The translations under genes and the position numbers were made by a program. The notes beneath the pieces were generated by a model. That model searched no databases and had not been told where the DNA came from. It saw only the letters and a program-made list of their open reading frames with translations. Below, piece by piece: positions 4,964 through 19,416 of a stretch of DNA of 64,000 nt; positions within the stretch are counted from its first letter, which is position 1, and every line of letters begins with the position of its first letter. Origin of the DNA: Phycisphaerae bacterium (GTDB lineage: Bacteria; Planctomycetota; Phycisphaerae; UBA1845); the NCBI GenBank assembly GCA_029260035.1, contig JAJDEA010000130.1:24985-88984 (forward strand). Direction: 5' to 3'.

Positions 4964-6025
4964 ATGCGAAAAGAATCCTACGAGTTCCTCAAAAAGATAC
5001 AGGAAACGCCTTCGCCTTCGGGATTTGAACAACCCGTGCAGCGGATCGTCAGGCGGCGAATGAAGGCTTTCGCAGATGGTATCGAAACCGATGTGCACGG
5101 TAATGTCATTGTTTCGCTGAATCCGAAAGGCTCGCCTCGTGTTATGCTGGCTGGTCATTGCGATCAAATCGGAATGATGGTTCGATATATCAACGACGGA
5201 GGGTACATCTTTTTTTCGCAAATCGGAGGAATTGATCCCTCTGTGCTGCCGGGGTCACGCGTTGTCATTCATACGCAGCATGGCCCGGTGGATGGCATCA
5301 TCGGGCGAAGGCCTATTCATGTACTCAAGCCCGAGGAGCGCGGCGCCAAGACAGAGTTGCGAGAGCTATGGGTAGACATTGGCGCGAAGGATAAGAAGGA
5401 AGCTGAGCGCGTCGTCAGCGTCGGCGACGCCATTACCTTCCACCTTGCGATGACGCATCTGGCTGGCAATCTTGTTACATCGCCGGCGTTCGACAACAAG
5501 TGCGGAACGTTTATCGTTATGGAAGCGCTTCGTCTTTGTGCATCCAAAAAGATCAAATGCGCACTATTCGCCGTGAGCACGGTGCAGGAGGAAATCGGGC
5601 TACGCGGAGCGCGCACATCCTGCTTTGGGGTCGATCCGCAGGTCGGCATAGCTGTGGATGTAACCCACGCCACTGACTATCCCGACATCGACAAGCGAAC
5701 TCACGGCGATGTAAAACTTGGCATGGGGCCAACGATCCCTCGAGGTCCGAATATCAACCCTGTGTTGGAAGAGCTGATTATTAAAACCGCCAAGGCGAAG
5801 CGCATTCCAATACAACGCGAGGCAGCGCCCTCCGGCACACCCACGGACGCGAACGTCATCCAGTTAACGCGGTCAGGCGTCGCGACAGCACTCATTGGAA
5901 CACCGAACCGCTACATGCACACGCAGGTTGAGGTGGTGAGCTTGCAGGATTTGGAAAACTCCGCAAAACTGATTGCGGAAACGGTTACGAAGATAAGCCA
6001 ACGAACAAACTTCATTCCCAAATGA
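4964..6025 (+). CDS. M42 family metallo-aminopeptidase
   Basis: SPSGFE, MLAGHCDQIG, IGGID, FDNKCG, VQEEIGLRGA, AVDVTHA, TDA, RYMHT motifs. Confidence 0.92.
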   Translation: MRKESYEFLKKIQETPSPSGFEQPVQRIVRRRMKAFADGIETDVHGNVIVSLNPKGSPRVMLAGHCDQIGMMVRYINDGGYIFFSQIGGIDPSVLPGSRVVIHTQHGPVDGIIGRRPIHVLKPEERGAKTELRELWVDIGAKDKKEAERVVSVGDAITFHLAMTHLAGNLVTSPAFDNKCGTFIVMEALRLCASKKIKCALFAVSTVQEEIGLRGARTSCFGVDPQVGIAVDVTHATDYPDIDKRTHGDVKLGMGPTIPRGPNINPVLEELIIKTAKAKRIPIQREAAPSGTPTDANVIQLTRSGVATALIGTPNRYMHTQVEVVSLQDLENSAKLIAETVTKISQRTNFIPK

Positions 6026-7827
6026 ACCAAGCCCAACAACCGGACAACAAGCCAACTGGCACTAAGGATTCCTCCGAACCAAGCATTCCACCCCTTGCAC
6101 AAACTGTCGAAAACGAATCACTTGATCGTCTTATGGAAACTTTTTCCAGCGCTGCGATGGGAACGCTTTTCCTGTGTGATCTTGAAGGCGATATTTTGAC
6201 AAATTCCCCTTGGGATGGCGAAGTCTCGGCTCTACTCGTTTCAACATCGAAAGGGCGAAAAGAATTTCTTGCAGCCGTCCGTCGAGCGGCAACCCAAGAA
6301 CTCAACGATGCCAAGGTACAGAAACCGACCTGGCTGGAACTGCGGACGGCTCTCATTATGCACGAGTCCTCCCCCATCGGCGTAGTCATTTTCGCCCGCG
6401 AAAAGAACGATGAACTGAAAGCGTGTACGCAAAGACTCTCAGAATCACTTGGCATTGACGAAGCCGCCATGCTACATGCGATTGATCGTGATTCCAAAGA
6501 ATCCACCCAAGACACGCCCGCCGTTGAATTCCTGCTCGAAGCATGTGCCAAATCGATAGCAGTGGTCTATGCACAAGCCATTCGCGGAAGGCAGCAAATG
6601 GTGGACCTCCACGTCGTGCATACGCTTGCGGATATGCTCTCGGGAACACTTGATCTTCAGGAAGTCCTGGATACGACCGTCCGCCGAGTGGTAACGGTGA
6701 TGGACGTGAAAGCGTGCGGCATTCGGCTATTGAACGAGGAGACCGGCGAACTGGTCATTAAGGCGGTCTACAACCTTTCGTCAGAGTATCTCGACAAAGG
6801 TCCGGTCATGCTCGCTGACAATATTATTGATGCAACCGCATTCGCGGGCGAGTCCGTGTTCGTCGAAGATGCTCCGAACGACCCGCGTATCCGCTATCCG
6901 GAGAATGCCCGCCGGGAAGGAATCGTAAGCGGCTTGTGCCTCCCCATGACCTATCGAGGTCAGACCGTGGGCGTACTCCGCGTCTATACGGGCAAACGTC
7001 ATCTGTTCAATGAATCCGAAGAAACGCTCTTGAGATCGATTGGTTCTCAGGCAGCGTCGGCGGTCATCAACGCCAAGCTTCACGCCGAACAACAGACAGC
7101 AGACCGTGTACAGAGACAAGTCAAAGTTGCTGGCGAGATTCAAAAGAGGACGCTTCCTGAGGTCGTGCCGGGAATCAGTTCTCTCGATTTTGGTTGTGTC
7201 TACGTTCCGACACTCGATGTGAGCGGTGATTTTTACGATTTCATCGAGCTTGATCGAGGCCGCTGGGGCGTATGCGTTGCGGATGTCGTCGGGAAAGGTC
7301 TTCCTGCAGCACTCATGATGGCATCGGTGCGAGCAGCCGTGCGAGCCTTTGCTCAATCAGTGGCGGACATTAGCGCAGTCATGCAGTCGGTCAATCGACA
7401 TATGTGCCGCGAAACTCTCGTAAGCGAGTTTGCAACAGCGGTCTACGGCGTACTGACTCCGGACGGACGGACGTTTACTTACAGTAGCGGAGGGCACCCT
7501 CCCATCCTGGTACTCCGAGGAGACCATTTTATTGAGTTGTCAGCGGGAGGGACCGTCATAGGTCTCGACCCGTCGGAAGCCTTTGAATCTGAAACAATCA
7601 CCACAATACCGGGCGACATTTTCGTTATGTATACCGACGGGATCATCGAGGCCATGAATTTCGATGATGTGGAATATGGATTTCACCGATTACGAGCGTC
7701 AATCTGGCGGCATCGTCATCTCGATGCACAACAGCTCGCCAAGCAAATCCTGTGGGATGTTCGCCGGTTCGCGGGCTTGGCGGATCAGTCTGATGACATC
7801 ACAGCTGTCGTCTTCAAAGTCCGTTAG
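6022..7827 (+). CDS. Sensor phosphatase: N-terminal PocR-like region + GAF + PP2C/SpoIIE (RsbU-like)
   Basis: GAF (VEDAPNDPRI, GLCLPM, VGVLRVY); SpoIIE motifs VSGDFYD, ADVVGKGLPAA, GGHPP, YTDGIIEA, DDIT; ATGA overlap with the M42 gene. Confidence 0.88.
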   Translation: MNQAQQPDNKPTGTKDSSEPSIPPLAQTVENESLDRLMETFSSAAMGTLFLCDLEGDILTNSPWDGEVSALLVSTSKGRKEFLAAVRRAATQELNDAKVQKPTWLELRTALIMHESSPIGVVIFAREKNDELKACTQRLSESLGIDEAAMLHAIDRDSKESTQDTPAVEFLLEACAKSIAVVYAQAIRGRQQMVDLHVVHTLADMLSGTLDLQEVLDTTVRRVVTVMDVKACGIRLLNEETGELVIKAVYNLSSEYLDKGPVMLADNIIDATAFAGESVFVEDAPNDPRIRYPENARREGIVSGLCLPMTYRGQTVGVLRVYTGKRHLFNESEETLLRSIGSQAASAVINAKLHAEQQTADRVQRQVKVAGEIQKRTLPEVVPGISSLDFGCVYVPTLDVSGDFYDFIELDRGRWGVCVADVVGKGLPAALMMASVRAAVRAFAQSVADISAVMQSVNRHMCRETLVSEFATAVYGVLTPDGRTFTYSSGGHPPILVLRGDHFIELSAGGTVIGLDPSEAFESETITTIPGDIFVMYTDGIIEAMNFDDVEYGFHRLRASIWRHRHLDAQQLAKQILWDVRRFAGLADQSDDITAVVFKVR

Positions 7828-10800
7828 AAGTAGATGTATCCTTCCGCTCGGCTGAGCGGGGTGCAGGAATCCTCCCCGGAACAAATCGCGTGTTATACTC
7901 AAGTCGCCAATCTTCCATATCGGAATCAGCGGGCATGGTTGAAATCGTAGCATTCCAACTTGGTAATGGCTCAACGCTGTCGCCAGTAACCACATTGTGG
8001 TCTTGATCCTTATCCCAGCCTACAGAATAGAAAAAGAGGGTGCGCTTTCGACCGACAGAAACCGGCGGAAGCTCATCCGCCCTGAACCGGAGGGTGAGCG
8101 CATCGCCACCGTTGAGAATAGCCAGCTTGTTGTCTTGGGAATCAATCAACGGCAATACATCTCCAAACCGCGTACACCACCCCTGCGGCGTCGTGCGCCA
8201 AGGGGGTGTCATGGAAACTTGCTCGTACTTCGGCGTATGGGGATGCCCTGGCTTCCATTGCTCAATTCTTGAATAGCCCCGATGATACAGATCAGCATGA
8301 CCGAGCGGCAGCTCATGGAATGTCACGGCGGAGCGATCGACCTTTTCAAAAAGAGCGATCCGATCCCAGCGAATTTCAAAGGTCGTTGTAAGCCTCAGCG
8401 ATTGCGTATGCTCTGGCAGCTTGCCGGTAAGATCGCACAAGATGGTTTTCGTTTTGCCTGCAGGCATCCCAACGACAACATCCAAAGGTTGCCAGTCACC
8501 ATCTGCGGTCTTAGCTTCCAACTTGGGAGGAATGACTTCAAGTTTGGAATTTTGCGACATGCCGACATTCGTACTGGCATCGCCATATTGCAGCCAACCA
8601 GTGAGCGCAAGCACCAATGGTCGGCCTGATTCCAATGCGCCAAAGTCCAGCGTAAGCGACATAGGATGGCACATCCCTCGATAGGGCGACTTAAGCAACA
8701 ATCCCGGCGGTGCGAATTGCTGATCGATCGTCATCACGTCTGCCGTACGGTCCCTGCCATCACTCCCCATCGCACTGCTCAGAGCATTCGCCGGACGAAG
8801 CGCCCAAAGCTCGGAAGGCGGGAAAGGCGGAGCCATGATTTTGTCCGACGCGTGAATTTCCACATCCGAATCGTGTTCCGCAGCTACAACCTTAACGCGA
8901 TCAAGATAAAACACTTCGCGAAATTCGTCGGTTAGTTCGAGGATCAATTCTCCATCGACCATCGGAAATTCGTCGGCATCACCTATCCGAACAAATTCGT
9001 CCGGGTCAGCGGGAAGAAGTACATCGCGGGTCAGCGACAGTCCGATTGGAGCATTGCCCAAGATGTCCGTGATGAAACGAAAACGCTCGCCATCCCACGC
9101 ATAAAGGAACGGACAAGAGCCTGTCGGCACGTTTTTTTCAACAATCTCCAAAGGCAACGCAGTAACAGTTACGTTTATCAAATTGTCGACCACGCCATTT
9201 GTCCAGACGGTTCGGATCGAATCAAAATGCCGATGATCCCCAACGCCGATTTCCACAGGCAAACCCGTCACCGCCCGTGACAGCAAGAAGCCTGCATCTC
9301 TAAACTCAACCTGCACGCCGATGGCACTCGGATTCCCCTTCGTGGGAACCAGATGGACCTTCCATTGGCCTTGAGAATGACTGCCCTCGTTTGTCAACAG
9401 ATGAAGCGTGCCGTTACGGCTTAAGAGTAATAGATCGGTATCTCCGTCGTCATCCAAGTCTGCTGCTATCAGTTGAAGCAAAGGCGGGACTGAGCTACTC
9501 GAGAGCCCAAGCACTTGCGAAACATCCGCCCACTTGCCATCGCCCAGATTGCGCCAAACTTGAACAAACCCCTTCGATTGATCCACGGGGTCTGCCCCGG
9601 TCGCGACAAGATCGAGCCAGCCATCATTGTCAAAATCAAAAAGAGCCGCATCGGCTAACGGATCCACTTTTCCAATAACATCTCGACCCCCGTCGGGGCC
9701 GCCACGCATCACAACAATCGACTCATTACCGATGAGAATCGTATCGAGATGACCGTCGTTGTTGACGTCGTTGATGAGAATTCTCTCGGCTGCGGGCCAG
9801 GGACCAGGAGGTTCCGGCATAGGCTCGAATCGTCCCGCGCGCTTGTTTTCGATTACGCGAGATTCACTCTTCCCCATCGCTAGAACAAAATCGATACCAA
9901 CGTTGGCATCAAGATCACCCACTGCTACATCTACGACACCTTCAATATTTTTCAGTCCAACTTGCTCCAAAACCTGAGCGAAGGTTCCATCACCATTGTT
10001 TTGCCAGAGGGCCAACTGGCGAGTGTCCGCCAGAATCAAATCCAAGTCGCCATCATGTTCATAATCAATCCACCGAGCCACTTGCGCTTTTTCACCCGCA
10101 AGGCCCGACGCCTGAGTAACGTCTTCAAAACTTTTGTCAGAACGCTGTCTCATCAGCCGAAGACCATCCGATCCGATCAACAGCGCATCACTCAGCGCAT
10201 GCACCTTTGGATCATACTTAACGCCTTCAGGCACTACGTTATGGAAATCGCACACAACGATTCTCATCATTCGGCCGATACTCTGAATCGGCTCGCTCGT
10301 CCACACTCGTTGAAACGGTCCATTTTCAGATCGTTTCGCCGTCTGCAAAACGCCATCCGATGTAACAAGGGCCAGCGTATATTGCCCTGCAGGGTCTTGA
10401 TTCAAAATGACTATCGATGAGACGTCTGAATCAACCAAGTTGCCCAACAAGTTTGAGGTATCGGCAGCGAACCGAACATCCAACTCGGGCGATTCCGGTC
10501 GCACCGTTTTCCCAGCCGGTGGTGCTGATTCGGGAACGGTATGCCTGCAAAGCTCCAACGCGTCGGCGGATCGGGTCTCGTTTCCAAAAACCTTACGAAG
10601 TCTCATGAATTCAAAGTTGCGTCGCTCGAACTCCTCGCGATCTCCATCTTTTCGCGCATAAGTTGCAAGTGAATACTGGGCGCTGGCGTGAAGTGGATCG
10701 AGGCGCGTCGTCTCACGAAGTTGCACTTTCGCTTTCTCATGTTCGCCAAGAGCCTGGTATGAACGAGCGAGTTGAAAACGCACAGCGGCGGTCTGCGCGT

Positions 10801-11188
10801 CAAGCCTCACTACTGCTTCCAATGATGCGCGGGCTTTGTCGAATTGCCCTAAATGGAAATACGCCAATCCGGAAAGGTATTGCACGGTCGCGGTGTTCGA
10901 TTCGACTCGTTGCAGCGACACAAGCGCCGCTTCATACTTTCGATCGATAATCTGCGCACGCGCTAAGTTCCGTAACGCCGGTCCTGAGTCAGGCTCCATG
11001 GCGACGGCTCTGGTAAGCACCTCGATCGCTTTGCTTGCTTCGCGGTTTTCAATGTGCGCCTTGCCGACATTGAGCAACTTGTGGAACTCGTCGGGGTTGC
11101 TGCGTTTGCACCCGGACAAAAAAAGCCCCCCCGCTGCGACTATCGCGAAAACCAACAAACCTACTTTGGACAATCGAATTCGAGACAC
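7814..11188 (-). CDS. Lipoprotein: TPR repeats + FG-GAP/VCBS propeller + ASPIC/UnbV-like + uncharacterised C-terminal domain
   Basis: Lipobox FLSG-C; TPR-like helices; repeats DYEHDGDLDL, DVNNDGHLD, DFDNDGWLDL, DLDDDGDTDL; GNPSAIGVQVE...WTNG; GSCPFLYAWDG C-terminal region. Confidence 0.85.
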   Translation of the reverse strand: MSRIRLSKVGLLVFAIVAAGGLFLSGCKRSNPDEFHKLLNVGKAHIENREASKAIEVLTRAVAMEPDSGPALRNLARAQIIDRKYEAALVSLQRVESNTATVQYLSGLAYFHLGQFDKARASLEAVVRLDAQTAAVRFQLARSYQALGEHEKAKVQLRETTRLDPLHASAQYSLATYARKDGDREEFERRNFEFMRLRKVFGNETRSADALELCRHTVPESAPPAGKTVRPESPELDVRFAADTSNLLGNLVDSDVSSIVILNQDPAGQYTLALVTSDGVLQTAKRSENGPFQRVWTSEPIQSIGRMMRIVVCDFHNVVPEGVKYDPKVHALSDALLIGSDGLRLMRQRSDKSFEDVTQASGLAGEKAQVARWIDYEHDGDLDLILADTRQLALWQNNGDGTFAQVLEQVGLKNIEGVVDVAVGDLDANVGIDFVLAMGKSESRVIENKRAGRFEPMPEPPGPWPAAERILINDVNNDGHLDTILIGNESIVVMRGGPDGGRDVIGKVDPLADAALFDFDNDGWLDLVATGADPVDQSKGFVQVWRNLGDGKWADVSQVLGLSSSSVPPLLQLIAADLDDDGDTDLLLLSRNGTLHLLTNEGSHSQGQWKVHLVPTKGNPSAIGVQVEFRDAGFLLSRAVTGLPVEIGVGDHRHFDSIRTVWTNGVVDNLINVTVTALPLEIVEKNVPTGSCPFLYAWDGERFRFITDILGNAPIGLSLTRDVLLPADPDEFVRIGDADEFPMVDGELILELTDEFREVFYLDRVKVVAAEHDSDVEIHASDKIMAPPFPPSELWALRPANALSSAMGSDGRDRTADVMTIDQQFAPPGLLLKSPYRGMCHPMSLTLDFGALESGRPLVLALTGWLQYGDASTNVGMSQNSKLEVIPPKLEAKTADGDWQPLDVVVGMPAGKTKTILCDLTGKLPEHTQSLRLTTTFEIRWDRIALFEKVDRSAVTFHELPLGHADLYHRGYSRIEQWKPGHPHTPKYEQVSMTPPWRTTPQGWCTRFGDVLPLIDSQDNKLAILNGGDALTLRFRADELPPVSVGRKRTLFFYSVGWDKDQDHNVVTGDSVEPLPSWNATISTMPADSDMEDWRLEYNTRFVPGRIPAPRSAERKDTSTSNGL

Positions 11189-11368
11189 AACAATCCCTCG
11201 GCAATGGAAAGATACCCTTTACCAGGCATGTTACCGACCGCGAGTTGGGTTGTCATGTTTCCCCTGGATTCCTACCAATTGGTTTCCAATTAGATATCCG
11301 GTAGAATGCGTGGGTTGCGTCTCGGGCAAAATGCTAAGAAACAAAATCGGCCAGCGAGTCAGAGAGAC

Positions 11369-14230
11369 ATGTCTACATCCATCGAATCAGCTGCGAACAG
11401 CCAGAAGCCGAAGCGCATTCGCTATGTCCGCGCGGTGGGGCCACGATTACGCAAGCTGCTCTTCGTGGTTTTTGCACTCTCTGCATTGATTGGCGCCAAT
11501 TCCGTCTACCTTGTCGGCATCACCGCATTGGAGTGGTGGAAAGACGCAACCTACCAGGACTATTTCTACCAATGCATGTTCCTGGTACACCTCGTTCTAG
11601 GATTCACAATGGTGTTGCCGGTTATCGTTTTTGGTATCGCGCACATCGTCAACGCATACAATCGACCCAACCGGCGGGCAGTACGAGCGGGCTATGGTGC
11701 ATTCGTAGCCACCCTTCTTATCATCGTAAGTGGAATCCTACTCACTCGGCTTGATGCTTTTGGCTATACGTTTGATGTAAAGAGTCCTGTCATTCGCAAC
11801 ATTTCATACTGGGCACACGTCTTGTGTCCGTTGGTTGCCGTTTGGTTATATGTCCTACACCGTTTGGCAGGCAAACGCATCAAATGGCGCGTCGGCGCCA
11901 GCTGGGCGGCTGTCGCTGCAGGTTTTGCGGTCATCATGGCGGTTTGGCAATCTCAAGACCCACGGCAATGGAATGTCGTCGGGCCACAATCCGGCGAGCA
12001 ATACTTCTTTCCGTCGCTCACGCGCACGGCAACAGGCAATTTCATTCCGGCTCGGGCACTTGCCAATGATCAATACTGTCGCGAGTGCCATGAAGACGTG
12101 CATGAGACCTGGACGCACAGTGCCCACAAGCTGGCGTCGTTCAACAACCCAGCCTATTTGTTCTCCGTACGCGAGACGCGAAAAGTACTCTTTGCCCGCG
12201 ATGGCAACGTAAAAAGCTCGCGGTTTTGTGCCGGATGCCACGATCCGGTTCCGTTCTTGAGCGGAGAATTTGAAGACCCCCGCTTCGATGATCCGGAGTA
12301 TGACTTATCGAAAGATAAACTCGCTCAGGCGGGCGTCACCTGCACGGTGTGTCATGCAATCACGCACATCAACAGCCCGCGAGGAAACGGCGACTACACG
12401 ATTGAAGAACCGATTCAATACCCGTTCACTTTCAGCGATAGTACCTTCCTCCGTTGGATCAACAAACAACTCGTAAAATCCAAGCCGGCCTTTCACAACA
12501 AGACCTTCCTGAAGCCATTGCACAAAGAAGCCGAGTTCTGCTCCGCGTGTCATAAGGTGCATCTGCCCAAGGAACTCAACGAATATAAGTTCCTACGAGG
12601 CCAAAACCTATACGATTCATACCTGCTGAGCGGCGTTTCAGGCCATGGCGCCGCAAGCTTTTATTATCCTGATGAAGCGGAGACCAACTGCAACGACTGT
12701 CACATGCCACTCATTGAGTCTGACGAATTCGGCTCGCAGGATTTTGACGAATCCGGCAAACTCACGGTGCATGACCATCAGTTTCCATCTGCCAATACGG
12801 CGATTCCTTATTTGTTAGGCCATCCAGAATCTGCCATTCAGAGTCATGCTACATTCAACGAAGGCGTGATGCGCGTCGACATCTTTGGGATCAAGAAAGG
12901 TGGAACGATAGCTGGCGAATTGCTTGCGCCGATAAGGCCAAGCGTTCCGACTCTTGAACCCGGTGAAACCTATCTTCTAGAAACCGTCATACGAACGCTG
13001 AAAATGGGCCATCTGTTTACGGAAGGTACCGCCGATTCCAATCAACCCTGGCTTGACATTACCGTCACAGCCAACAGCAAGACAATCGGACGCAGTGGCG
13101 GAATGAATGCCGATGATGGAGAGGTTGACCCGTGGTCGCATTTCCTCAATGCCTATGTGATCGATCGCGAAGGAAACCGGATTGATCGACGTAACGCGCA
13201 GGACATATTCGTGGCACTCTATAACAACCAGATTCCGCCGGGCGCAGGCGAAGTTGTTCATTACCGGCTTACCATCCCGAAAGACATACAAGGCCCTGTC
13301 ACGATCGACGTCAAACTCCAATTCCGCAAGTTCGACACGCTCTACATGAAGCACTTTCAGGGAGAGTCTTTTGTCAAGAACGACCTCCCAATCATGACGC
13401 TCGCCACCGATCGTGTCACGTTGCCAATTGGGGCCGAACAACGTGTGACTAATTCAACCGACAAAACGCCTCCTGCCTGGCAGCGATGGAACGATTACGG
13501 AATTGGCCTATTGCGCAAAGGCAATCAAGGTTCCAATCGGGGTGAGCTGCGACAAGCGGAGCAAGCTTTCGCAAAAGTGACAGAATTGGGCAAGCCTGAC
13601 GGCTGGGTCAATCGCGCGCGTTTGTATGTTAAGGAAGGCCGACTTGATGAAGCCGTGAGCGCACTGAGAGAAGCCGCATCGCACGATCCACCCGCCCATG
13701 CCTGGTCGATCGCGTGGTTCACAGGCCTGGTCAACAAGCAGAATGGCTTTTTGGATGAAGCTATAGCCGATTTCAAATCTCTTATTGCGATGGACACAGC
13801 TGAAACTAGAAAGCGGAATTTCGATTTCTCGTTGGACTATCGCGTTCTTAACGAGCTGGGACAGACGATCCTGGAGCGGGCAAAGCAGGAACGTGGCGAA
13901 AACCGCAAGACTGCCAGACTTGAACTGTTGCGTGAAGCCAGAGATTGGTTTAACCAAACTCTTTCGATTGACCCGGAAAATGTGGCTGCGCATTACAACC
14001 TCGCACTGATATTCGCGTTGCTCGGGGAAAGTGACAGTGCGGAGGCGCATCGCGTCTTGCATGCCGAATACAAAGTCGATGACAACGCGCGCGACAGGGC
14101 TGTGTCGTTAGCACGTCGCAAATCTGAACCTGCCAATCACGCCGCCGAAGCTATTGTCATTTACGATCTTCAGCGTGAAGGGGCATACGAATTATCTTCC
14201 AAAGCAACAAGGCTGACAAAAGATGAGTGA
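11369..14230 (+). CDS. Membrane-anchored multiheme c-type cytochrome with N-terminal cytochrome b-like TM domain and C-terminal TPRs
   Basis: Five CxxCH at 12077, 12227, 12341, 12539 and 12689; five N-terminal TM helices containing four His; C-terminal TPRs; ATG 11369 chosen over the ORF-track start 11306. Confidence 0.85.
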   Translation: MSTSIESAANSQKPKRIRYVRAVGPRLRKLLFVVFALSALIGANSVYLVGITALEWWKDATYQDYFYQCMFLVHLVLGFTMVLPVIVFGIAHIVNAYNRPNRRAVRAGYGAFVATLLIIVSGILLTRLDAFGYTFDVKSPVIRNISYWAHVLCPLVAVWLYVLHRLAGKRIKWRVGASWAAVAAGFAVIMAVWQSQDPRQWNVVGPQSGEQYFFPSLTRTATGNFIPARALANDQYCRECHEDVHETWTHSAHKLASFNNPAYLFSVRETRKVLFARDGNVKSSRFCAGCHDPVPFLSGEFEDPRFDDPEYDLSKDKLAQAGVTCTVCHAITHINSPRGNGDYTIEEPIQYPFTFSDSTFLRWINKQLVKSKPAFHNKTFLKPLHKEAEFCSACHKVHLPKELNEYKFLRGQNLYDSYLLSGVSGHGAASFYYPDEAETNCNDCHMPLIESDEFGSQDFDESGKLTVHDHQFPSANTAIPYLLGHPESAIQSHATFNEGVMRVDIFGIKKGGTIAGELLAPIRPSVPTLEPGETYLLETVIRTLKMGHLFTEGTADSNQPWLDITVTANSKTIGRSGGMNADDGEVDPWSHFLNAYVIDREGNRIDRRNAQDIFVALYNNQIPPGAGEVVHYRLTIPKDIQGPVTIDVKLQFRKFDTLYMKHFQGESFVKNDLPIMTLATDRVTLPIGAEQRVTNSTDKTPPAWQRWNDYGIGLLRKGNQGSNRGELRQAEQAFAKVTELGKPDGWVNRARLYVKEGRLDEAVSALREAASHDPPAHAWSIAWFTGLVNKQNGFLDEAIADFKSLIAMDTAETRKRNFDFSLDYRVLNELGQTILERAKQERGENRKTARLELLREARDWFNQTLSIDPENVAAHYNLALIFALLGESDSAEAHRVLHAEYKVDDNARDRAVSLARRKSEPANHAAEAIVIYDLQREGAYELSSKATRLTKDE

Positions 14231-16073
14231 TGAACCATCCGGCAAGAAACCAGTCAGCGAAGAATGGGTGCCTGCGGATGACGCGATCATCGGCAAAGCG
14301 TTTCGTTGGTCTGCCATCATTGCTGTGATCGTGATTACGGTCGGTGTGACGGCTTTCCTGATGGCCCGTCGTTCAGAACCGGTAATTCCTCCCAAACCCG
14401 CCCCCAAGGTCACGCCCATAATACGAACGCAAGTCGCTGAACCGCCAGCCATACCCTTTCAAGACATCACGATTGACGCAGGAATCAACTTCGTTCATGA
14501 AAACGGAGCAGCTGGCGACAAGCTTCTGCCGGAGACGATGGGCGCTGGCGCTGCATTTCTTGATTTCGATAACGATAACGACCAGGACTTGATCCTCGTC
14601 AATTCCGCCAGTTGGCCGGAGAACATACGCAAGGACGTTGACACTCCGACATTAGCGCTTTGCAAAAACGACGGATCGGGACATTTCGTCGACATTACAG
14701 AACATTCCGGAATGGACGCCACGTTTTACGGTACAGGGATTGCGGTGGGAGATTACGATAGCGATGGCAACATAGACGTCTTCGTCTCTGCAGTCGGCAG
14801 CAATCATTTATTCCGCAACCTTGGCGAAGGTAAGTTTGAAGACGTCACCCGCATTGCCGCCGTTGCCGGGAAACAAGACGCATGGAGCACGAGCAGCGGA
14901 TTTTTCGATCTCGACAACGACGGAGACCTGGACCTGTTCGTCTGTAATTATGTTCGCTGGTCGCGGGAAATCGATTTCAACGTGAACTACCGACTCGTCG
15001 GCGTCGGCCGAGCGTATGGCCCGCCTATGAATTTCGAAGGGACGTTCTCTTATCTATATCGCAACAACGGAGATGGCACTTTCACTGACGTTTCTGAAGA
15101 GTCCGGCGTGCAAGTCCGCAACGCTGCAACGGGATTGCCAGCGGGTAAAGCCTTGGGATTGACCTTCGTAGATGTAAACGAAGATGGCTACATAGATATA
15201 TTTATTGCCAATGACACCGTACAGAATTTCCTTTTCGTCAACAAGGGAGATGGCACGTTTTCTGACGACAGCTCATTTCTCGGCGTTGCTTTCGATCGCA
15301 ACGGAAGCGCTACGGGAGCAATGGGCATCGACGCCGGCATTTTTCGCAACGACAATTCGATGGGCTTTGCGATTGGGAACTTCGCCAATGAAATGTCTAC
15401 ACTTTATGTATCACAAGAAAGTCGCAAGGTTTTTGCTGACGAAGCAATTGGCGAGGGCATCGGTGCACCAACGCGATCAATGCTAACCTTCGGTGTTCTC
15501 TTCTTGGATAGCGACCTCGACGGCCGGCTAGATCTGCTTCAAGCAAACGGTCATCTGGAAGAAGAAATCAACATTGTGCAACCGAGTCAACATTATGAAC
15601 AAGCCGCCCAACTCTTCTGGAACGCTGGCCCAACAGCCCGAGGGTGCTTCGTCCCTGTACCACAAGAAAAAACAACCGATCTTGGTACGCCTATCGTAGG
15701 CCGAGGGGCTGCGTACGCAGATATCGATTCAGACGGCGACCTGGATCTTGTTATGACACAAGCCGGTCGCCGACCTTTGCTCTTGAAGAATCAACAGCAA
15801 TCAGCCAACCATTGGCTAAGACTAAAACTCGTAGGCAGGAATGCGAATCGAGATGCGATAGGTGCCTGGGCGAGCGTTCGAGTCGGAGACGTAATTCAAC
15901 GACGCCAAGTCATGCCGACAAGAAGCTATCTTTCCCAGTCTGAACTTCCACTAACGTTCGGGTTGGGTAAATCGTCTCAGATCGAAAAACTGACGATCAC
16001 CTGGCCCAACGGAACGATCCAAGACGTACCGCCGCCAAGCGCCGACCAATTCATGACGATAACGCAGCAATAA
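14223..16073 (+). CDS. CRTAC1-family FG-GAP repeat protein with ASPIC/UnbV domain, N-terminal TM anchor
   Basis: LPETMGAGAAFLDFDNDNDQD, repeated D.D.DG..D motifs, GRGAAYADIDSDGDLD, NRDAIGA, SYLSQSE..LTFGLG, WPNG; overlaps the cytochrome stop. Confidence 0.9.
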   Translation: MSDEPSGKKPVSEEWVPADDAIIGKAFRWSAIIAVIVITVGVTAFLMARRSEPVIPPKPAPKVTPIIRTQVAEPPAIPFQDITIDAGINFVHENGAAGDKLLPETMGAGAAFLDFDNDNDQDLILVNSASWPENIRKDVDTPTLALCKNDGSGHFVDITEHSGMDATFYGTGIAVGDYDSDGNIDVFVSAVGSNHLFRNLGEGKFEDVTRIAAVAGKQDAWSTSSGFFDLDNDGDLDLFVCNYVRWSREIDFNVNYRLVGVGRAYGPPMNFEGTFSYLYRNNGDGTFTDVSEESGVQVRNAATGLPAGKALGLTFVDVNEDGYIDIFIANDTVQNFLFVNKGDGTFSDDSSFLGVAFDRNGSATGAMGIDAGIFRNDNSMGFAIGNFANEMSTLYVSQESRKVFADEAIGEGIGAPTRSMLTFGVLFLDSDLDGRLDLLQANGHLEEEINIVQPSQHYEQAAQLFWNAGPTARGCFVPVPQEKTTDLGTPIVGRGAAYADIDSDGDLDLVMTQAGRRPLLLKNQQQSANHWLRLKLVGRNANRDAIGAWASVRVGDVIQRRQVMPTRSYLSQSELPLTFGLGKSSQIEKLTITWPNGTIQDVPPPSADQFMTITQQ

Positions 16074-16149
16074 GATTGATATTGCCCACGTCAACTGCAA
16101 CGGCGAGACCACTCTTTGCCAACCTATCAAACCGAATACTACAAAGCCG

Positions 16150-17835
16150 TCACTTACTCTGTTGCAGCTTGTATATTTTTCCAGCCTCGAAAGTTCCGAA
16201 GGACTCTTCCTGGCCGTTCGGCCAGCGAATCATCACGCCATCAACTCTTTCAGCTTCACCCAAGCCGAAATGAATACGAGGATCGTTGCTTGAGCAGTAG
16301 CTATAGCCGGGTTGAACCTGGCGCCATTGACTCGCAGAACCCAGAGAGACTCGAACCATCGCGCCGATCGCATCTCGCCCGTCACGGTTCAAGACACGAA
16401 ACATAATCCAACGACCATTCGTCGAGGATATGTTCTTGAGCACATAAGGGGCGGCATCTTTGTTGACTACAACGATATCGATTTTCCCATCGTTGTTGAG
16501 GTCTCCGAAAGCCGCGCCACGACTCGTCGCGATCAGTGATTTTTTGGTGCCGCCTATTGGCATAGACTCATCATAGGATGCGTTCCCGCTCCCAACAAAA
16601 AGTTGGTTAGGCTCTGCGTATGGATGTTTTTTGTCAATTCGAGGTCGAAAAAGTGCAACCCGACCGTTCGCAATGTAAAGATCCTGGTAGGTGTCATTGT
16701 TGAAATCAGCAAAACCAAGTCCAAACCCGGTGAACGCTAAACTCGCGCCCGCGAGACCGAACTGTACTGTCATATCCTCGAAGGTGCCGTCGCGATTACG
16801 GTAAAGCGTATTGGTTTCACCTCTGAGATGAGACATGAAGAGGTCCAAATCGCCGTCAGCGTCAAAATCAACCGCTGCAACCCCCATTCCTGCTTCAGCG
16901 CGACCGCTTTGATTCAGCGCACAGCCGGAAACCAGCCCTTCATCTACAAGGCGACCGCCTCCCTGATTGATCCAAAGACGGTTGGCCATTCCATCGTTGG
17001 CAACATAGAAGTCCATCCGTCCGTCTCGATTGAAATCGCCGGAAGCAACACCCAATCCCGTCCCGAATGACTTCTCTATACCGCTGGTATTTCTAGCGTT
17101 TTCGAACCTTTCGCCCTGAACATTGCGATACAAGCTATCCAGAGCGGACGCACCATAGCTCAAAGGGTGACAATAATCCGGCAGTCCAGCAGGCGAATGA
17201 CAATCCCGCTCCGTTTCGACAGACCAATCAACGTAATTGGCAATCAGCAGGTCGAGCCAACCATCGCCGTCGAAATCTGCGAAAAGGCTACTGGTTCCCC
17301 AGGATGCGTCATCCACACCAAGCTGACCGGCCATTTCAGTAAAAGTGCCATCGCCATTGTTTCGCAGCAGATCGTTCGGCCCGATGTTGGTCGTGTAGAT
17401 GTCGACATTTCCATCGTTATCGAAATCCGCGCAACTGCATCCAACACCATACCCTGCGCCACCAACGCCTGCCTTGTCCGTCACATCCTCGAATGTCGCA
17501 TCGCCCTGGTTGCGATACAGCCTGTTGCCAATTTTCTCCTTGCTACCAACCAGTTCGTTTCCAGCTTGAACAAAATAAATGTCAAGGTCGCCGTCGTTGT
17601 CGTAATCTAATAAGCAAACACCGCCAGCCATGATTTCCGGAAATAGATATCTCTTTTGATGACCTGACACATGTTGAAAGTCAATGCCGGCTGAAGCCGA
17701 GATTTCCTCGAACCACGGTGCTTGCTCTTCGCCTCCCGCTGTTCCTGATGACATAGCCTCTCGCTTGCAGCCCGACAAGGCAAGCAAGATAGCAACAATA
17801 GCGATGCATTGATTTGCGTTCGATGCAATTACCAT
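16150..17835 (-). CDS. CRTAC1-family FG-GAP repeat lipoprotein with ASPIC/UnbV domain
   Basis: Lipobox LALSG-C; PEIMAGGVCLLDYDNDGDLD, AGMGV, SRGAAFGDLNNDGKID, DAIGA, SYCSSND.RIHFGLG, WPNG. Confidence 0.9.
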   Translation of the reverse strand: MVIASNANQCIAIVAILLALSGCKREAMSSGTAGGEEQAPWFEEISASAGIDFQHVSGHQKRYLFPEIMAGGVCLLDYDNDGDLDIYFVQAGNELVGSKEKIGNRLYRNQGDATFEDVTDKAGVGGAGYGVGCSCADFDNDGNVDIYTTNIGPNDLLRNNGDGTFTEMAGQLGVDDASWGTSSLFADFDGDGWLDLLIANYVDWSVETERDCHSPAGLPDYCHPLSYGASALDSLYRNVQGERFENARNTSGIEKSFGTGLGVASGDFNRDGRMDFYVANDGMANRLWINQGGGRLVDEGLVSGCALNQSGRAEAGMGVAAVDFDADGDLDLFMSHLRGETNTLYRNRDGTFEDMTVQFGLAGASLAFTGFGLGFADFNNDTYQDLYIANGRVALFRPRIDKKHPYAEPNQLFVGSGNASYDESMPIGGTKKSLIATSRGAAFGDLNNDGKIDIVVVNKDAAPYVLKNISSTNGRWIMFRVLNRDGRDAIGAMVRVSLGSASQWRQVQPGYSYCSSNDPRIHFGLGEAERVDGVMIRWPNGQEESFGTFEAGKIYKLQQSK

Positions 17836-17895
17836 GGCACTTATCGATCAACAATGAAGTGGAGTAGTCGCTCAGTTAGGTCGCGCTGTCGTGGA

Positions 17896-19416
17896 TTATC
17901 GCTGCACAAGCTCTTCAAGTTGTTGAGAGGCTTGAACGACTCTTGGTTGCTGTGGCGCAATGGCTCTGGCTGCCTCGACATGCCTAGCTGCCCCATCCAA
18001 GTCTCCCCTGTCAGCCGCCAATCGACCCAGCTCAACGTGCGCCTGCCAGGACGTTGAGTCTAACGCCAATACCATCCGGTATTGGGTCGCGGCATCCTCC
18101 GGTCGCTTTGCAGCCTGGAGAATCGTTCCATAATCGAAATGATAATCGGCTTTCGCGCTTTCAAGTTGCGTCGCCCGCTCGAATGCTGGCAATGCTTCGC
18201 TGAATCGACCAAGCTGGGCAAGGACGCGACCGCGTGTATGCTGGCTGCGAGCAACATCCGGCGCAATGCGGATGCTCCGATCGATCGCCTCTAGCGCGGG
18301 AGTCATTTGTCCCAGTTCGATATAACACCGAGCCAGGTTTGCATGAATAACAAACTGCCCATCATCGATTTCGGAAGCCCGCATGAAAAAACCAAGCGCT
18401 TTGTTTGGATTCTTTGCCATCATGTACGCTGTACCCAAGTTGGCGAGCACAGCTACGTTGTTCGGATGTTTTTCGTATGTAAGCTCGAGAATCTCAATGG
18501 CTCGCTGAACTTTGCCCGCCTCAAAGTACGCCTGCGCTTCGCGAACACGATCTGACAAGAGGTACGTCTGTAGATGATCTGGAAACGTCTCACTCCACGG
18601 ATCAGCTACATAAAGCGCTTCTGCATTTGCGCCCAATTGAAATTCACGTTTGGCGTCGTCTTTGTTTCCCAACCCTTGATATGCCTGGGCAAGAAGGTAG
18701 TGCAGCTTTCTGACATTCGAATATTTCTCGACGATCGGATCAAGTATCCGCGCAGCACCGGCATAATCTCCTTTACGAATCATAGCCGTCGCGACACCGG
18801 CGTGGGCGGCAAGGGCATCGGAGCGCAAGAACAGGACTCGGCGAAATACGGACTCCGCCTCTTCAGTATTTCCAGAGTTGAGCAATACTTCACCTAGTCG
18901 ATAGAGCGCCGGAGCGAAGTCAGGCCTGTCTTGTACCATCTCGCGATAAAGCGATAACGCTTCCTCCGTCTCACCAAGATTCTGCGTGGTGACCGCAAGA
19001 TGGTATCTCGCCAGAGTCATCGTCGGATCAAGCCGAAGAGCATTCGCAAAACAATCCCTCGCTTCAGTGAAAAGGCCGTTGGCTTCGTACACAACGCCTA
19101 GCTGTGCGTGCACGGATGCGTCATTCGGCGCAAGTCGAACCTTATCCATATAGCTCGCAATATAGTTTCGAAGATCAGCTTCGTACTGTTCAAAAAACAA
19201 CGGCGTTACGACCGGTACGGCAGAAACTTCATGCTCGCGCAGAACAGCGGAGAGAATCCCACCTCCGCCAGCAACGGCCAATACAAAAAACAAAGCCAAA
19301 CTCCACCGACGTCGCAATGCGGGTATGCGATCCCCCTGAGACGGAGCCGAGCTTTTGCGGCTGCCCTGCCGAGCATCCTGCCGCGAGCTTTTTGTTCTTT
19401 CGCGCTTCCTGGACAT
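17896..19416 (-). CDS. Membrane-anchored tetratricopeptide repeat protein
   Basis: Basic N-terminus, one TM helix, then about 10 TPR-like units (e.g. AQLGVVYEANG..EA..CF..AL.LDP). Confidence 0.88.
   Translation of the reverse strand: MSRKRERTKSSRQDARQGSRKSSAPSQGDRIPALRRRWSLALFFVLAVAGGGGILSAVLREHEVSAVPVVTPLFFEQYEADLRNYIASYMDKVRLAPNDASVHAQLGVVYEANGLFTEARDCFANALRLDPTMTLARYHLAVTTQNLGETEEALSLYREMVQDRPDFAPALYRLGEVLLNSGNTEEAESVFRRVLFLRSDALAAHAGVATAMIRKGDYAGAARILDPIVEKYSNVRKLHYLLAQAYQGLGNKDDAKREFQLGANAEALYVADPWSETFPDHLQTYLLSDRVREAQAYFEAGKVQRAIEILELTYEKHPNNVAVLANLGTAYMMAKNPNKALGFFMRASEIDDGQFVIHANLARCYIELGQMTPALEAIDRSIRIAPDVARSQHTRGRVLAQLGRFSEALPAFERATQLESAKADYHFDYGTILQAAKRPEDAATQYRMVLALDSTSWQAHVELGRLAADRGDLDGAARHVEAARAIAPQQPRVVQASQQLEELVQR

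What the first reader, a model, noticed from the sequence alone, without database searches (positions are those of the whole stretch)
7814..19416. Candidate undescribed envelope redox system: multiheme cytochrome + three FG-GAP/ASPIC-UnbV propellers + TPR scaffolds
Seen: five consecutive genes, all exported or membrane-anchored. A TPR-propeller lipoprotein is divergently transcribed (180-bp spacer) from a pentaheme membrane cytochrome, whose stop overlaps a CRTAC1-type propeller gene; a convergent TPR + CRTAC1 lipoprotein pair follows. Known: ASPIC/UnbV-FG-GAP proteins are expanded in Planctomycetota and Acidobacteriota and are related to UnbV of enediyne clusters; I know of no established function for these planctomycete proteins. 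Inference: a periplasmic complex in which Ca-binding propellers dock through TPRs on a membrane cytochrome, for redox chemistry on an extracytoplasmic substrate or for sensing. No PKS or recognisable terminal reductase is nearby.
Basis: partly seen in the sequence, partly recalled or inferred. Interest (0 to 1): 0.78.

Follow-up and report, generated by a model that had tools for sequence, protein, structure and literature searches.

The report
Membrane cytochrome paired with CRTAC1 propeller
A membrane cytochrome with seven likely haems is almost always encoded next to its own calcium-binding propeller protein of the CRTAC1 family, a widespread pairing that appears undescribed and gives these enigmatic bacterial propellers their first firm functional context.

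Summary
The five genes are present as described. Only part of them forms a conserved unit.

**Core pair.** The core is the cytochrome gene B (11369-14230) and the CRTAC1-type propeller gene C (14223-16073). A C-like gene lies directly downstream on the same strand in 73 of 81 assessable cytochrome loci. The propellers fall into clades that mirror three cytochrome subfamilies.

**B architecture.**
- A 5-helix membrane anchor with four invariant histidines, probably binding two b-haems.
- A periplasmic pentahaem module with the fold of T. tepidum cytochrome c552 (the ExtKL/MccSep group).
- A C-terminal TPR domain.

**Gene A.** A is a lipoprotein with TPR, FG-GAP propeller and a CBM32-like C-terminal module. 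It is a looser third member. It lies near B in 11 of 53 close loci, co-occurs with C-like genes in 99 of 102 genomes, and is fused to a C orthologue in three genomes.

**Genes D and E.** They form a separate, recurrent TPR+CRTAC1 cassette that is not conserved beside B.

**TPR docking.** Docking through the TPR is not supported. TPR-less cytochromes keep the propeller, and one TPR-bearing subgroup lacks it.

**Most likely function.** A quinone-pool-linked periplasmic redox module with a dedicated propeller partner. The substrate is unknown. My literature searches found no description of it.

The parts
7814..11188 (-). Gene A: lipoprotein with TPR, FG-GAP propeller and an unnamed 434-aa C-terminal module (1124 aa)
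   Evidence: ORF. Pfam TPR plus FG-GAP_3. Family of about 1100-aa proteins named only VCBS, FG-GAP or TPR.
10619..11104 (-). A: TPR region (aa ~29-190), preceded by a lipobox LFLSGC
   Evidence: Pfam TPR families. Lipobox read from the translation.
9119..10291 (-). A: FG-GAP propeller and a divergent UnbV-like stretch (aa ~300-690)
   Evidence: FG-GAP_3, 5 stretches. C residues 499-599 align to the equivalent part of an A orthologue in L092.
7817..9118 (-). A: C-terminal all-beta module (aa 691-1124). Its middle part is a galactose-binding/CBM32-like sandwich.
   Evidence: No Pfam hit at E<=10. AF2 pLDDT 83.5. VIA best match 7d2a_A CBM32, Z 10.4, rmsd 2.8, 116 of 129 aligned.
11189..11368 (.). 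Divergent A/B intergenic spacer (180 bp if B starts at M22)
   Evidence: The consensus promoter scan was not above shuffles.
11369..14230 (+). Gene B: bc-type membrane cytochrome (953 aa from M22; an upstream ATG at 11306 gives 974 aa)
11441..11950 (+). B: five transmembrane helices with invariant H74/H92 (helix 2) and H150/H164 (helix 4); probable di-haem b anchor
   Evidence: Model helices 25-58, 65-96, 102-126, 140-166, 173-194. His invariant in 71 of 71. Among homologues, 10 of 52 weakly match PF01292 and 10 of 52 match DUF4405.
12047..12868 (+). B: pentahaem c domain (CXXCH at aa 237, 287, 325, 391, 441 of the 953-aa form)
   Evidence: Fold match to 5ze8.
12869..13423 (+). B: beta-sandwich domain carrying invariant H548
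   Evidence: DSSP strands 501-685. The 5ze8_A alignment spans model residues 227-685.
13475..14146 (+). B: C-terminal TPR domain
   Evidence: Pfam. Model helices 703-926. TPR structure matches.
14223..16073 (+). Gene C: membrane-anchored FG-GAP plus UnbV_ASPIC (CRTAC1-type) propeller, the conserved partner of B
   Evidence: Pfam. Profile hit to human CRTAC1 9etn, E 2.6e-37. Synteny. Tree.
16150..17835 (-). Gene D: CRTAC1-type lipoprotein, member of a separate TPR-linked paralogue group
   Evidence: Pfam. Tree. Own-genome paralogues.
17896..19416 (-). Gene E: membrane-anchored TPR protein, upstream partner of D
   Evidence: Pfam. E-like plus D-like pairs also on contigs C52, C184 and C216 of the same genome.

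Best explanation
B and C form a conserved, probably translationally coupled two-gene module of the cell envelope.

B is a bc-type inner-membrane cytochrome. Its five-helix anchor probably holds two b-haems, one near each face of the membrane. These would carry electrons between the quinone pool (or the cytoplasmic face) and a periplasmic pentahaem module of the c552/ExtKL type. Only four invariant non-motif histidines are available as distal ligands for five c-haems, so one haem may be differently ligated and possibly reactive.

C is a calcium-binding seven-bladed CRTAC1-type propeller tethered to the same membrane. It is B's dedicated periplasmic partner. It either binds or presents the substrate, or is itself the protein that exchanges electrons with B.

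A is an accessory component of the same system. It is a lipoprotein with TPR, a propeller and a carbohydrate-binding-like module. It works with C and can exist without B.

D and E are an independent paralogous TPR+propeller cassette that happens to lie next door.

Status of each step:
- Shown: gene order, co-diversification, domain folds, invariant residues.
- Inferred: b-haem binding, quinone coupling, direction of electron flow, physical B-C contact, and any chemistry.
For: **Synteny.** A C-like gene sits directly downstream on the same strand in 48 of 51 assessable loci of subfamily T1, 15 of 15 of T2 and 10 of 10 of T3. Under my start-codon choice, the start of C overlaps the end of B in 33 of the 58 pairs printed. 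In the window the overlap is 8 nt.

**Exceptions keep the partner.** The three T1 exceptions (G043, G300, G118) hold a 51-55% identical C orthologue elsewhere. Their paralogues are at most 35% identical.

**Co-diversification.** The propeller partners of T1, T2 and T3 cytochromes each form one clade (support 98, 98 and 99). Non-partner paralogues of the window's genome group apart. Several genomes hold two pairs (G252, G350, G297, G089), as does the window's own genome (contig C224).

**Phyletic overlap in 401 genomes.** B is in 104, C-like in 102, both in 91. Ten of the 13 genomes with B but no C-like match have only T2b forms. A-like is in 136, and 99 of the 102 genomes with C-like also have A-like.

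**A linkage.** A-like genes lie within 10 kb of B in 11 of 53 T1 loci, in several different arrangements. The window's genome has only one A copy. A C orthologue and an A orthologue share one uninterrupted ORF in L091, L092 and L093.

**B architecture.**
- AF2 model: pLDDT 92.1, pTM 0.89.
- 5ze8 pentahaem c552: Foldseek E 2.7e-8; VIA Z 15.9, rmsd 3.8, 347 of 385 residues aligned over model 227-685.
- Four membrane His, five haem motifs, H253, H376, H470, H548 and K396 are invariant in 71 of 71.
- Among homologues of the anchor, 10 of 52 match PF01292 (best E 2.6e-6) and 10 of 52 match DUF4405.

**Independent precedent.** Passages of PMC12758564 report CRTAC1-family genes flanked by haem-protein genes (hydrazine-synthase homologues).
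Against: - No cofactor or redox residue is evident in C. No residue conserved in at least 90% of partners was specific to them compared with 29 non-partner paralogues.
- The window's own anchor sequence gives no Pfam hit even at E<=10. A profile of the anchor finds nothing significant among PDB sequences. The b-haem claim therefore rests on the four invariant histidines plus weak hits in 10 of 52 relatives.
- A-like genes occur in 40 genomes where B was not found, and C-A fusions occur in genomes where B was not found at E<=1e-50. The propellers therefore do not strictly need this cytochrome.
- Five sampled T2b cytochromes stand alone.
- The genomes compared are related, so counts overstate independence.
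- The E-value thresholds for the phyletic counts were chosen by me. The C-like count includes some paralogues.
- The tree is FastTree only.
Confidence: 0.55

Rival explanations
1. B is the enzyme and the propellers are only substrate-capturing or scaffolding proteins. One c-haem of the pentahaem module is catalytic, as in the related polysulfide reductase MccSep. C and A, with calcium loops and a CBM32-like module, hold a polymeric or particulate substrate such as a glycan or mineral at the membrane.
For: - There are only four invariant non-motif His for five c-haems, plus invariant K396 and near-invariant M446, K654 and Y351.
- In MccSep, four haems are bis-His and haem 2 is the active site, approached by a loop from the Ig-like domain (passages). 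B has invariant H548 in the equivalent beta-sandwich.
- A's C-terminal module resembles CBM32 and F5/8C sandwiches.
- No partner-specific residues were found in C.
Against: - B has no conserved Cys or Sec outside the CXXCH motifs, so MccSep chemistry is excluded.
- The CBM32 similarity is middling (Z about 10).
Confidence: 0.25
2. The module serves extracellular or mineral electron transfer (Fe/Mn or an electrode-like acceptor). B would act as a CbcL-like quinol oxidase. The propeller would be a periplasmic or outer link.
For: - The pentahaem fold group includes ExtKL, which lies in a Geobacter porin-cytochrome cluster, and PtdA, which lies next to a porin (passages).
- B has the bc-type architecture of a membrane cytochrome fused to a multihaem c domain. 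CbcL is called a bc-cytochrome and menaquinone oxidase in the abstract listing.
Against: - No porin or further multihaem gene lies in the window flanks.
- Apart from CRTAC1/A-like genes, no gene cluster was shared by more than 16 of the loci in the all-against-all neighbour clustering. That clustering placed the cytochrome gene in only 58 of the 83 loci, because ORF calling failed in high-GC loci.
- Propellers have no known electron-transfer role.
Confidence: 0.1
3. The propellers and TPR proteins have a non-redox envelope role, such as adhesion, surface-layer or glycan handling, or integrin-like binding. B would be a redox-sensing or regulatory accessory, or a haem/cytochrome-handling factor. 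The TPRs would then act as CcmI-like chaperone domains.
For: - A-like and C-like genes exist without B.
- E matches PF23914 (CcmH/CycH TPR) above its cut-off, 70.4 against 42 bits.
- The integrin alpha propeller is the next PDB relative of C.
Against: - B has no cytoplasmic output domain.
- A seven-haem architecture with strictly invariant ligands across about 26% identity is costly for a sensor.
- The TPR hits are generic. E scores 154.9 bits for TPR_2.
- Tight co-diversification of B with its own propeller clade points to a specific working pair.
Confidence: 0.08
4. The adjacency reflects chance or local clustering of an expanded paralogue family, with no functional link.
For: - The window's genome has 10 UnbV_ASPIC matches.
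- Paralogues do cluster (two on contig C33).
- The D/E cassette beside B-C is not conserved.
Against: - 73 of 81 assessable loci keep the pair in the same order and on the same strand across three ancient subfamilies.
- The partner clades mirror the cytochrome subfamilies.
Confidence: 0.02

Closest known systems
CbcL-type inner-membrane bc-cytochromes of Geobacter (membrane b-type cytochrome fused to a periplasmic multihaem c domain)
   Same: Both combine an integral-membrane anchor bearing conserved histidines with a periplasmic multihaem c-type domain in one polypeptide. Relatives of B's anchor weakly match the same Pfam family group (PF01292/DUF4405; 10 of 52 each). CbcL is called a bc-cytochrome and menaquinone oxidase in the abstract listed.
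   Different: - B's own anchor gives no Pfam hit.
- B has five helices.
- B's c-domain is a five-haem c552/ExtKL-type fold followed by a beta-sandwich and TPR.
- B has an obligate propeller gene partner.
- The HydC/FdnI-like, nine-haem layout of CbcL is recalled, not checked here.
Pentahaem cytochrome group: T. tepidum c552 (PDB 5ze8), Geobacter ExtKL/MccSep, PtdA, cable-bacteria sPHC/lPHC
   Same: Five CXXCH motifs, a helical haem cap plus a C-terminal Ig-like beta-sandwich. VIA gives Z 15.9 with 347 of 385 residues aligned. There is a weak NCBIfam ExtKL hit.
   Different: - Those proteins are soluble periplasmic proteins. B is fused to a membrane anchor and to TPR.
- The MccSep active-site Cys and Sec are absent.
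- The ExtKL model score of 29 bits is far below its 250-bit cut-off.
- Sequence identity to 5ze8 is about 15%.
Human cartilage acidic protein 1 (CRTAC1, PDB 9etn) and the bacterial ASPIC/UnbV family
   Same: C and D have FG-GAP repeats followed by UnbV_ASPIC, both above Pfam cut-offs. The profile of C partners hits 9etn at E 2.6e-37.
   Different: - The bacterial partners are membrane-anchored and lack the EGF-like tail (recalled).
- They carry segments such as GHLEEE where the human protein has a gap in the alignment.
- They are encoded with a cytochrome.
- No function is established for either.
Hydrazine-synthase-homologue clusters that enclose a CRTAC1-family gene (PMC12758564)
   Same: A CRTAC1-family FG-GAP gene is embedded among genes for periplasmic haem proteins with propellers, in several bacterial clades (passages).
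   Different: The haem proteins are different: HZS alpha and beta-gamma homologues, not a membrane bc-cytochrome. I did not test whether those CRTAC1 genes belong to the C clades.
MsrPQ-type systems (membrane b-haem protein feeding a periplasmic enzyme from the quinol pool)
   Same: The logic is the same: a haem-b membrane subunit supplies a dedicated periplasmic partner encoded next to it.
   Different: This is a recalled analogy only. There is no sequence relation tested, the partner fold is different, and B adds five c-haems.

Membership tests
CRTAC1 / ASPIC-UnbV family (genes C and D) | FG-GAP repeats forming a propeller | tested here: met
   FG-GAP_3 at 5e-33 (C) and 4.7e-48 (D), above the 26.9-bit cut-off.
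CRTAC1 / ASPIC-UnbV family (genes C and D) | C-terminal UnbV_ASPIC domain (PF07593) | tested here: met
   69.7 bits (C) and 70.7 bits (D) against a 23.4-bit cut-off. The profile of 59 C sequences hits human CRTAC1 9etn at E 2.6e-37.
CRTAC1 / ASPIC-UnbV family (gene A) | UnbV_ASPIC domain after the FG-GAP repeats | tested here: inconclusive
   A gives no PF07593 hit at E<=0.01. However, one homologue (P0178) carries it, Atlas look-alike clusters carry it in 25-40% of members, and C residues 499-599 align to the equivalent part of an A orthologue.
Pentahaem c552 / ExtKL (PHC) group | Five c-type haem-binding motifs | tested here: met
   Five motifs are invariant in 71 of 71. The first is CX4CH in subfamily T3.
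Pentahaem c552 / ExtKL (PHC) group | Haem cap plus Ig-like beta-sandwich fold | tested here: met
   5ze8: Foldseek E 2.7e-8; VIA Z 15.9, rmsd 3.8, 347 of 385 aligned, model residues 227-685.
MccSep / ExtKL equivalog (NF040886) | Score above the curated cut-off, and a conserved haem-ligating Cys plus a Sec/Cys site | tested here: not met
   29 bits against a 250-bit cut-off. No Cys outside the CXXCH motifs reaches 60% conservation in 71 sequences. In the three relatives examined, the in-frame stop codons lie upstream of the start.
Prokaryotic cytochrome b561 / Ni_hydr_CYTB (PF01292) and DUF4405 di-haem membrane cytochromes | Profile match | tested here: inconclusive
   The window's anchor has no hit at E<=10. 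Among relatives, 10 of 52 match PF01292 (best 2.6e-6) and 10 of 52 match DUF4405 (best 1.3e-4). The Atlas gives a weak lead to Cytochrom_B561, score 0.85. The PDB profile search found nothing below E 0.5.
Prokaryotic cytochrome b561 / Ni_hydr_CYTB (PF01292) and DUF4405 di-haem membrane cytochromes | Four membrane histidines placed to ligate two haems | tested here: met
   H74/H92 on helix 2 and H150/H164 on helix 4 are invariant in 71 of 71.
Prokaryotic cytochrome b561 / Ni_hydr_CYTB (PF01292) and DUF4405 di-haem membrane cytochromes | Actual binding of b-type haem and a quinone site | not testable with these tools
   This needs a haemochrome assay, spectroscopy or a structure.
Tetratricopeptide repeat proteins (A N-terminus, B C-terminus, E) | TPR profile matches above cut-off | tested here: met
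   TPR structures match B model residues ~700-906 with Z about 16.
CBM32 / galactose-binding-domain-like (A residues ~798-949) | Beta-sandwich fold match and a sugar-binding site | tested here: inconclusive
   7d2a_A: Z 10.4, rmsd 2.8, 116 of 129 aligned, followed by many CBM32, CBM35 and F5/8C rows at Z 8-10. No Pfam hit. The binding site was not examined.

The most novel reading that the evidence does not exclude
Bacterial CRTAC1/ASPIC-UnbV propellers are redox partners. C, with A, would be the substrate-converting or cofactor-bearing end of a new kind of periplasmic respiratory or repair module. It would be wired to the quinone pool by its own di-haem-b/pentahaem-c cytochrome. The pairing arose once and duplicated as a unit into at least three subfamilies. 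This would give the first biochemical function to a superfamily that reaches from Planctomycetota to human cartilage protein CRTAC1.
Probability: 0.25. Interest if true: 0.85.

Novelty: new variant of a known kind. Interest (0 to 1): 0.62.

Why it matters
- CRTAC1/ASPIC-UnbV proteins are abundant in Planctomycetota, Acidobacteriota and other phyla and have no known function. A strictly conserved, co-diversifying cytochrome partner turns "unknown propeller" into a testable hypothesis: electron exchange with, or substrate presentation to, a quinone-linked cytochrome.
- The cytochrome is a widespread, unnamed architecture. It has 656 clusters (50% identity) at E<=1e-30. It is present in 104 of 401 sampled genomes of the phylum. 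Sources annotate it only as "TPR protein" or "multiheme c-type cytochrome".
- If the four invariant membrane histidines bind b-haems, this is a new family of bc-type respiratory entry or exit points in largely aerobic heterotrophic phyla.
- The natural C-A fusion and the hydrazine-synthase-homologue context reported elsewhere suggest a general link between these propellers and periplasmic haem chemistry.

Tried and rejected
- **Complex prediction.** B residues 227-690 with C residues 85-616 gave no verdict, score 0.00 in two runs, and the controls were not run. This is neither for nor against binding.
- **Sequencing runs.** No RNA holder was listed. The only holder is a DNA run that may be the source of the window. 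No reads were laid.
- **Selenocysteine reading of in-frame TGA/TAA in relatives.** Rejected. The stops lie upstream of the true start.
- **PDB sequence searches.** B alone hits only TPR designs. A hits only TPR proteins. The anchor profile hits nothing significant.
- **Pfam at E<=10.** Nothing for the A C-terminus. Only two non-significant hits for the B anchor and one for the B beta-sandwich.
- **Foldseek of the A C-terminal model.** Only low-TM jelly-roll matches.
- **Greedy ORF calling for a neighbour census.** It failed in high-GC loci, giving spurious long antisense ORFs. I relied on tblastn instead.
- **Partner-specific residues in C.** None found at 90% conservation.
- **E-like TPR next to non-partner CRTAC1 paralogues of other genomes.** Found in only 2 of 20 loci (L105, L115), so the E-D pairing is specific to one subgroup. 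tblastn may miss divergent TPRs.
- **Promoter and terminator scan.** Not above shuffles.
- **Chen et al. 2019 on c552.** Not held. It is known to me only through citing passages.
- **Supplements.** None were opened. Those of PMC12758564 and of the MccSep preprint might list related genes.

Full report
**Observation**

The region 7814-19416 holds five long ORFs exactly as described.

- **A** (7814-11188, minus strand, 1124 aa) has a lipobox (LFLSGC), TPRs and FG-GAP repeats.
- **B** (plus strand) has five CXXCH motifs, TPRs and a weak Cytochrome_C554 hit.
- **C** (14223-16073, plus) and **D** (16150-17835, minus) each pass Pfam for FG-GAP_3 and UnbV_ASPIC.
- **E** (17896-19416, minus) is a TPR protein with one N-terminal hydrophobic anchor.

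B most likely starts at M22 (11369). The database copy has 953 residues, and three relatives have stop codons just upstream of that position.

The flanking genes are unrelated housekeeping genes: an M42 peptidase, a GAF-PP2C phosphatase, sucC, amidohydrolases and a phosphate transporter.

**What is conserved**

B belongs to a large family. Sources name it only "tetratricopeptide repeat protein" or "multiheme c-type cytochrome". With the TPR removed, the query finds 656 clusters (50% identity) at E<=1e-30. In 401 genomes sampled across the phylum, 104 hold a match at E<=1e-50.

The matches fall into four groups:

| Group | Relation to B | Features |
|---|---|---|
| T1 | 45-64% identical, full length | TPR present |
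| T2 | about 30% by BLAST | TPR present |
| T2b | 28-33% | TPR matched in 4 of 5 sampled |
| T3 | about 27% | about 700 aa, no TPR |

I asked by tblastn what lies beside the cytochrome. Two loci end too soon to judge. In the other 81, a C-like gene sits directly downstream on the same strand as follows:

| Group | Loci with C-like gene downstream |
|---|---|
| T1 | 48 of 51 |
| T2 | 15 of 15 |
| T3 | 10 of 10 |
| T2b | 0 of 5 |

Under my start-codon choice, the two genes overlap in 33 of the 58 pairs printed.

The three T1 exceptions (G043, G300, G118) each keep a 51-55% identical C orthologue elsewhere in the genome. Their paralogues are at most 35% identical.

A FastTree of 68 partner propellers and 7 non-partner paralogues of the window's genome places the partners of T1, T2 and T3 cytochromes in three separate clades (support 98, 98 and 99). 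The paralogues group apart (one row was dropped by the program). The groups were defined by the cytochrome, not by the propeller. Several genomes hold two pairs. The cytochrome-propeller pair has therefore duplicated and diverged as a unit.

The window's own genome has a second, T3-type pair at the end of contig C224.

**Gene A**

A-like genes lie within 10 kb of B in 11 of 53 T1 loci and in 0 of 30 other loci. The arrangements vary: divergent, directly upstream on the same strand, downstream, and a short form with only the C-terminal module. The window's genome has only one A copy.

Across the 401 genomes:
- A-like matches occur in 136.
- 99 of the 102 genomes with a C-like match also have A-like.
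- 96 of the 104 with B also have A-like.
- A-like also occurs in 40 genomes where B was not found.

In three genomes where B was not found, a C orthologue (45-50% identical) and a full A orthologue form one uninterrupted ORF of 1691-1870 codons. This is a natural fusion and argues that C and A act together.

A's last 434 residues match no Pfam family. They fold as beta-sandwiches (pLDDT 83.5). The middle sandwich resembles CBM32 and F5/8C carbohydrate-binding modules (7d2a_A: Z 10.4, rmsd 2.8, 116 of 129 aligned). That match is middling.

**Genes D and E**

D-like or E-like genes are not conserved beside B. A second CRTAC1 gene within 10 kb was seen in only 3 of 83 loci. Within the window's genome, however, E-like plus D-like pairs recur on contigs C52, C184 and C216. 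D groups with those copies in the tree.

Among 20 non-partner CRTAC1 loci from other genomes, only 2 had an E-like gene upstream. D and E are thus a separate, subgroup-specific TPR+propeller cassette that happens to lie next to B-C here.

**Anatomy of B**

The AF2 model is confident (pLDDT 92.1, pTM 0.89).

- **Membrane anchor.** Residues 25-194 form five transmembrane helices. The positively charged N-terminus and the odd helix count place the haem domain in the periplasm (my reading).
- **Membrane histidines.** Helix 2 carries H74 and H92. Helix 4 carries H150 and H164. All four are invariant in 71 sequences that go down to 26% identity. Each helix has one His near each face of the membrane, which is the pattern of a di-haem b-type cytochrome.
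- **Anchor family.** The window's anchor has no Pfam hit. Among relatives, 10 of 52 match PF01292 (prokaryotic cytochrome b561; best E 2.6e-6) and 10 of 52 match DUF4405. A profile search of PDB sequences found nothing.
- **Periplasmic haem module.** Residues 227-685 align with the whole pentahaem cytochrome c552 of Thermochromatium tepidum, 5ze8 (Foldseek E 2.7e-8; VIA Z 15.9, 347 of 385 residues). This comprises a haem cap plus an Ig-like beta-sandwich.

Passages I read place c552 in one structural group with Geobacter ExtKL/MccSep, cable-bacteria pentahaem cytochromes and PtdA. MccSep is reported as a polysulfide reductase. Four of its haems are bis-His, and its haem 2 is ligated by Cys next to a selenocysteine from the Ig-like domain.

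B has no conserved Cys outside its haem motifs and no Sec, so it is not that enzyme. B does have only four invariant non-motif histidines (H253, H376, H470, H548) for five c-haems. One of them, H548, lies in the beta-sandwich. K396 is also invariant, and M446, K654 and Y351 are nearly so. One haem may therefore be differently ligated.

**How it most likely works**

- **Shown:** a conserved, co-diversifying gene pair, the domain folds, and the invariant ligands.
- **Inferred:** B moves electrons across the membrane through two b-haems, between the quinone pool and five periplasmic c-haems. C is tethered to the same membrane by its N-terminal anchor and is B's dedicated partner, either as electron partner or as substrate-binding subunit. 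A joins C in many lineages.

The direction of electron flow and the substrate are unknown.

The TPR is not what defines the pairing. T3 cytochromes lack it and keep the propeller, while T2b cytochromes have it and lack the propeller. C shows no partner-specific or obviously redox-active residues. The residues conserved in at least 90% of partners (E104, Y243, M367, R494, Y569) are shared with non-partner paralogues. This favours a binding or scaffolding role about as much as a catalytic one.

**Comparison with what is known**

B works like the bc-type inner-membrane cytochromes of Geobacter such as CbcL (abstract listing; its domain layout is recalled). It is not a recognised member of that family, and its domain combination is different. 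Its haem module is a fold-level member of the c552/ExtKL group, but it fails the ExtKL/MccSep model (29 against 250 bits).

C and D are true members of the CRTAC1/ASPIC-UnbV family.

The only published link I found between CRTAC1-family genes and haem proteins concerns hydrazine-synthase homologues (PMC12758564, passages). Six full-text searches found no description of the cytochrome-propeller pair. Subscription journals are mostly not held in that library.

**Verdict**

It is wrong in its extent, because D and E are not part of the unit, and in the proposed docking through TPRs.

The unit is a new variant of a known kind of system, a membrane bc-type multihaem cytochrome, with a new and apparently obligate partner class.

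Caveats:
- The genomes compared are related.
- I set the thresholds for the phyletic counts.
- The tree is a quick one.
- No expression or binding evidence could be obtained.

Noticed in passing
L091:8763-14372, L092:9442-14514 (reverse-strand numbering), L093:9383-14455: In three genomes of one family (f67), a C-type CRTAC1 orthologue and a full A-type orthologue (TPR, propeller, C-terminal module) share one uninterrupted ORF of 1691-1870 codons. Further CRTAC1 paralogues follow. No B homologue was found in these genomes at E<=1e-50.
   Followed up: partly
G000 contig C224:1-3411 and C108:1-336 (own genome, outside the window): A second cytochrome-propeller pair of the T3 type (30% identical cytochrome) lies here. 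Its propeller gene runs off the contig end. The C-terminal CRTAC1 fragment at the start of C108 may be its continuation.
   Followed up: partly
G000 contigs C52:8434-11573, C184:60013-63100, C216:15773-18853: Three more E-like TPR plus D-like CRTAC1 gene pairs occur in the same genome. C184 and C216 are very close copies of each other in the tree.
   Followed up: partly
L076-L080 (family f32 genomes): A subgroup of the cytochrome family (T2b) has five haem motifs, and four of the five sampled match the TPR region. It stands alone, with no CRTAC1 gene downstream. One genome checked (G167) has only a 32% identical propeller paralogue.
   Followed up: partly
L081-L090 (T3 cytochromes): In all 10 T3 cytochromes sampled, the first haem motif is CX4CH (for example CGTSGCH) instead of CXXCH. 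These proteins lack the TPR domain.
   Followed up: partly
window 19945-22350 (+): An 801-aa ORF, divergent from E, has a probable signal peptide (MKPAIIAAVAALFIVVSPSRAQ, starting about 160 nt into the ORF) and no Pfam or NCBIfam hit. Its last ~170 residues recur at 31-38% identity on at least 10 other contigs of the genome. It is not found in any fetched locus.
   Followed up: partly
G000 contig C130:20972-21718: A further, distant relative of B's haem domain (24-26% identity, 580-aa open frame) has no CRTAC1 hit on that contig.
   Followed up: no
window 7814-7827: The 3' end of the GAF-PP2C phosphatase gene (6022-7827, +) overlaps the 3' end of gene A (7814-11188, -) by 14 nt. The two genes are convergent.
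   Followed up: no
G390:C82:1907-8725 (coordinates): In this genome the cytochrome gene is flanked on both sides by CRTAC1-type genes: the usual partner downstream (56% identical to C) and a second one (43%) directly upstream.
   Followed up: no
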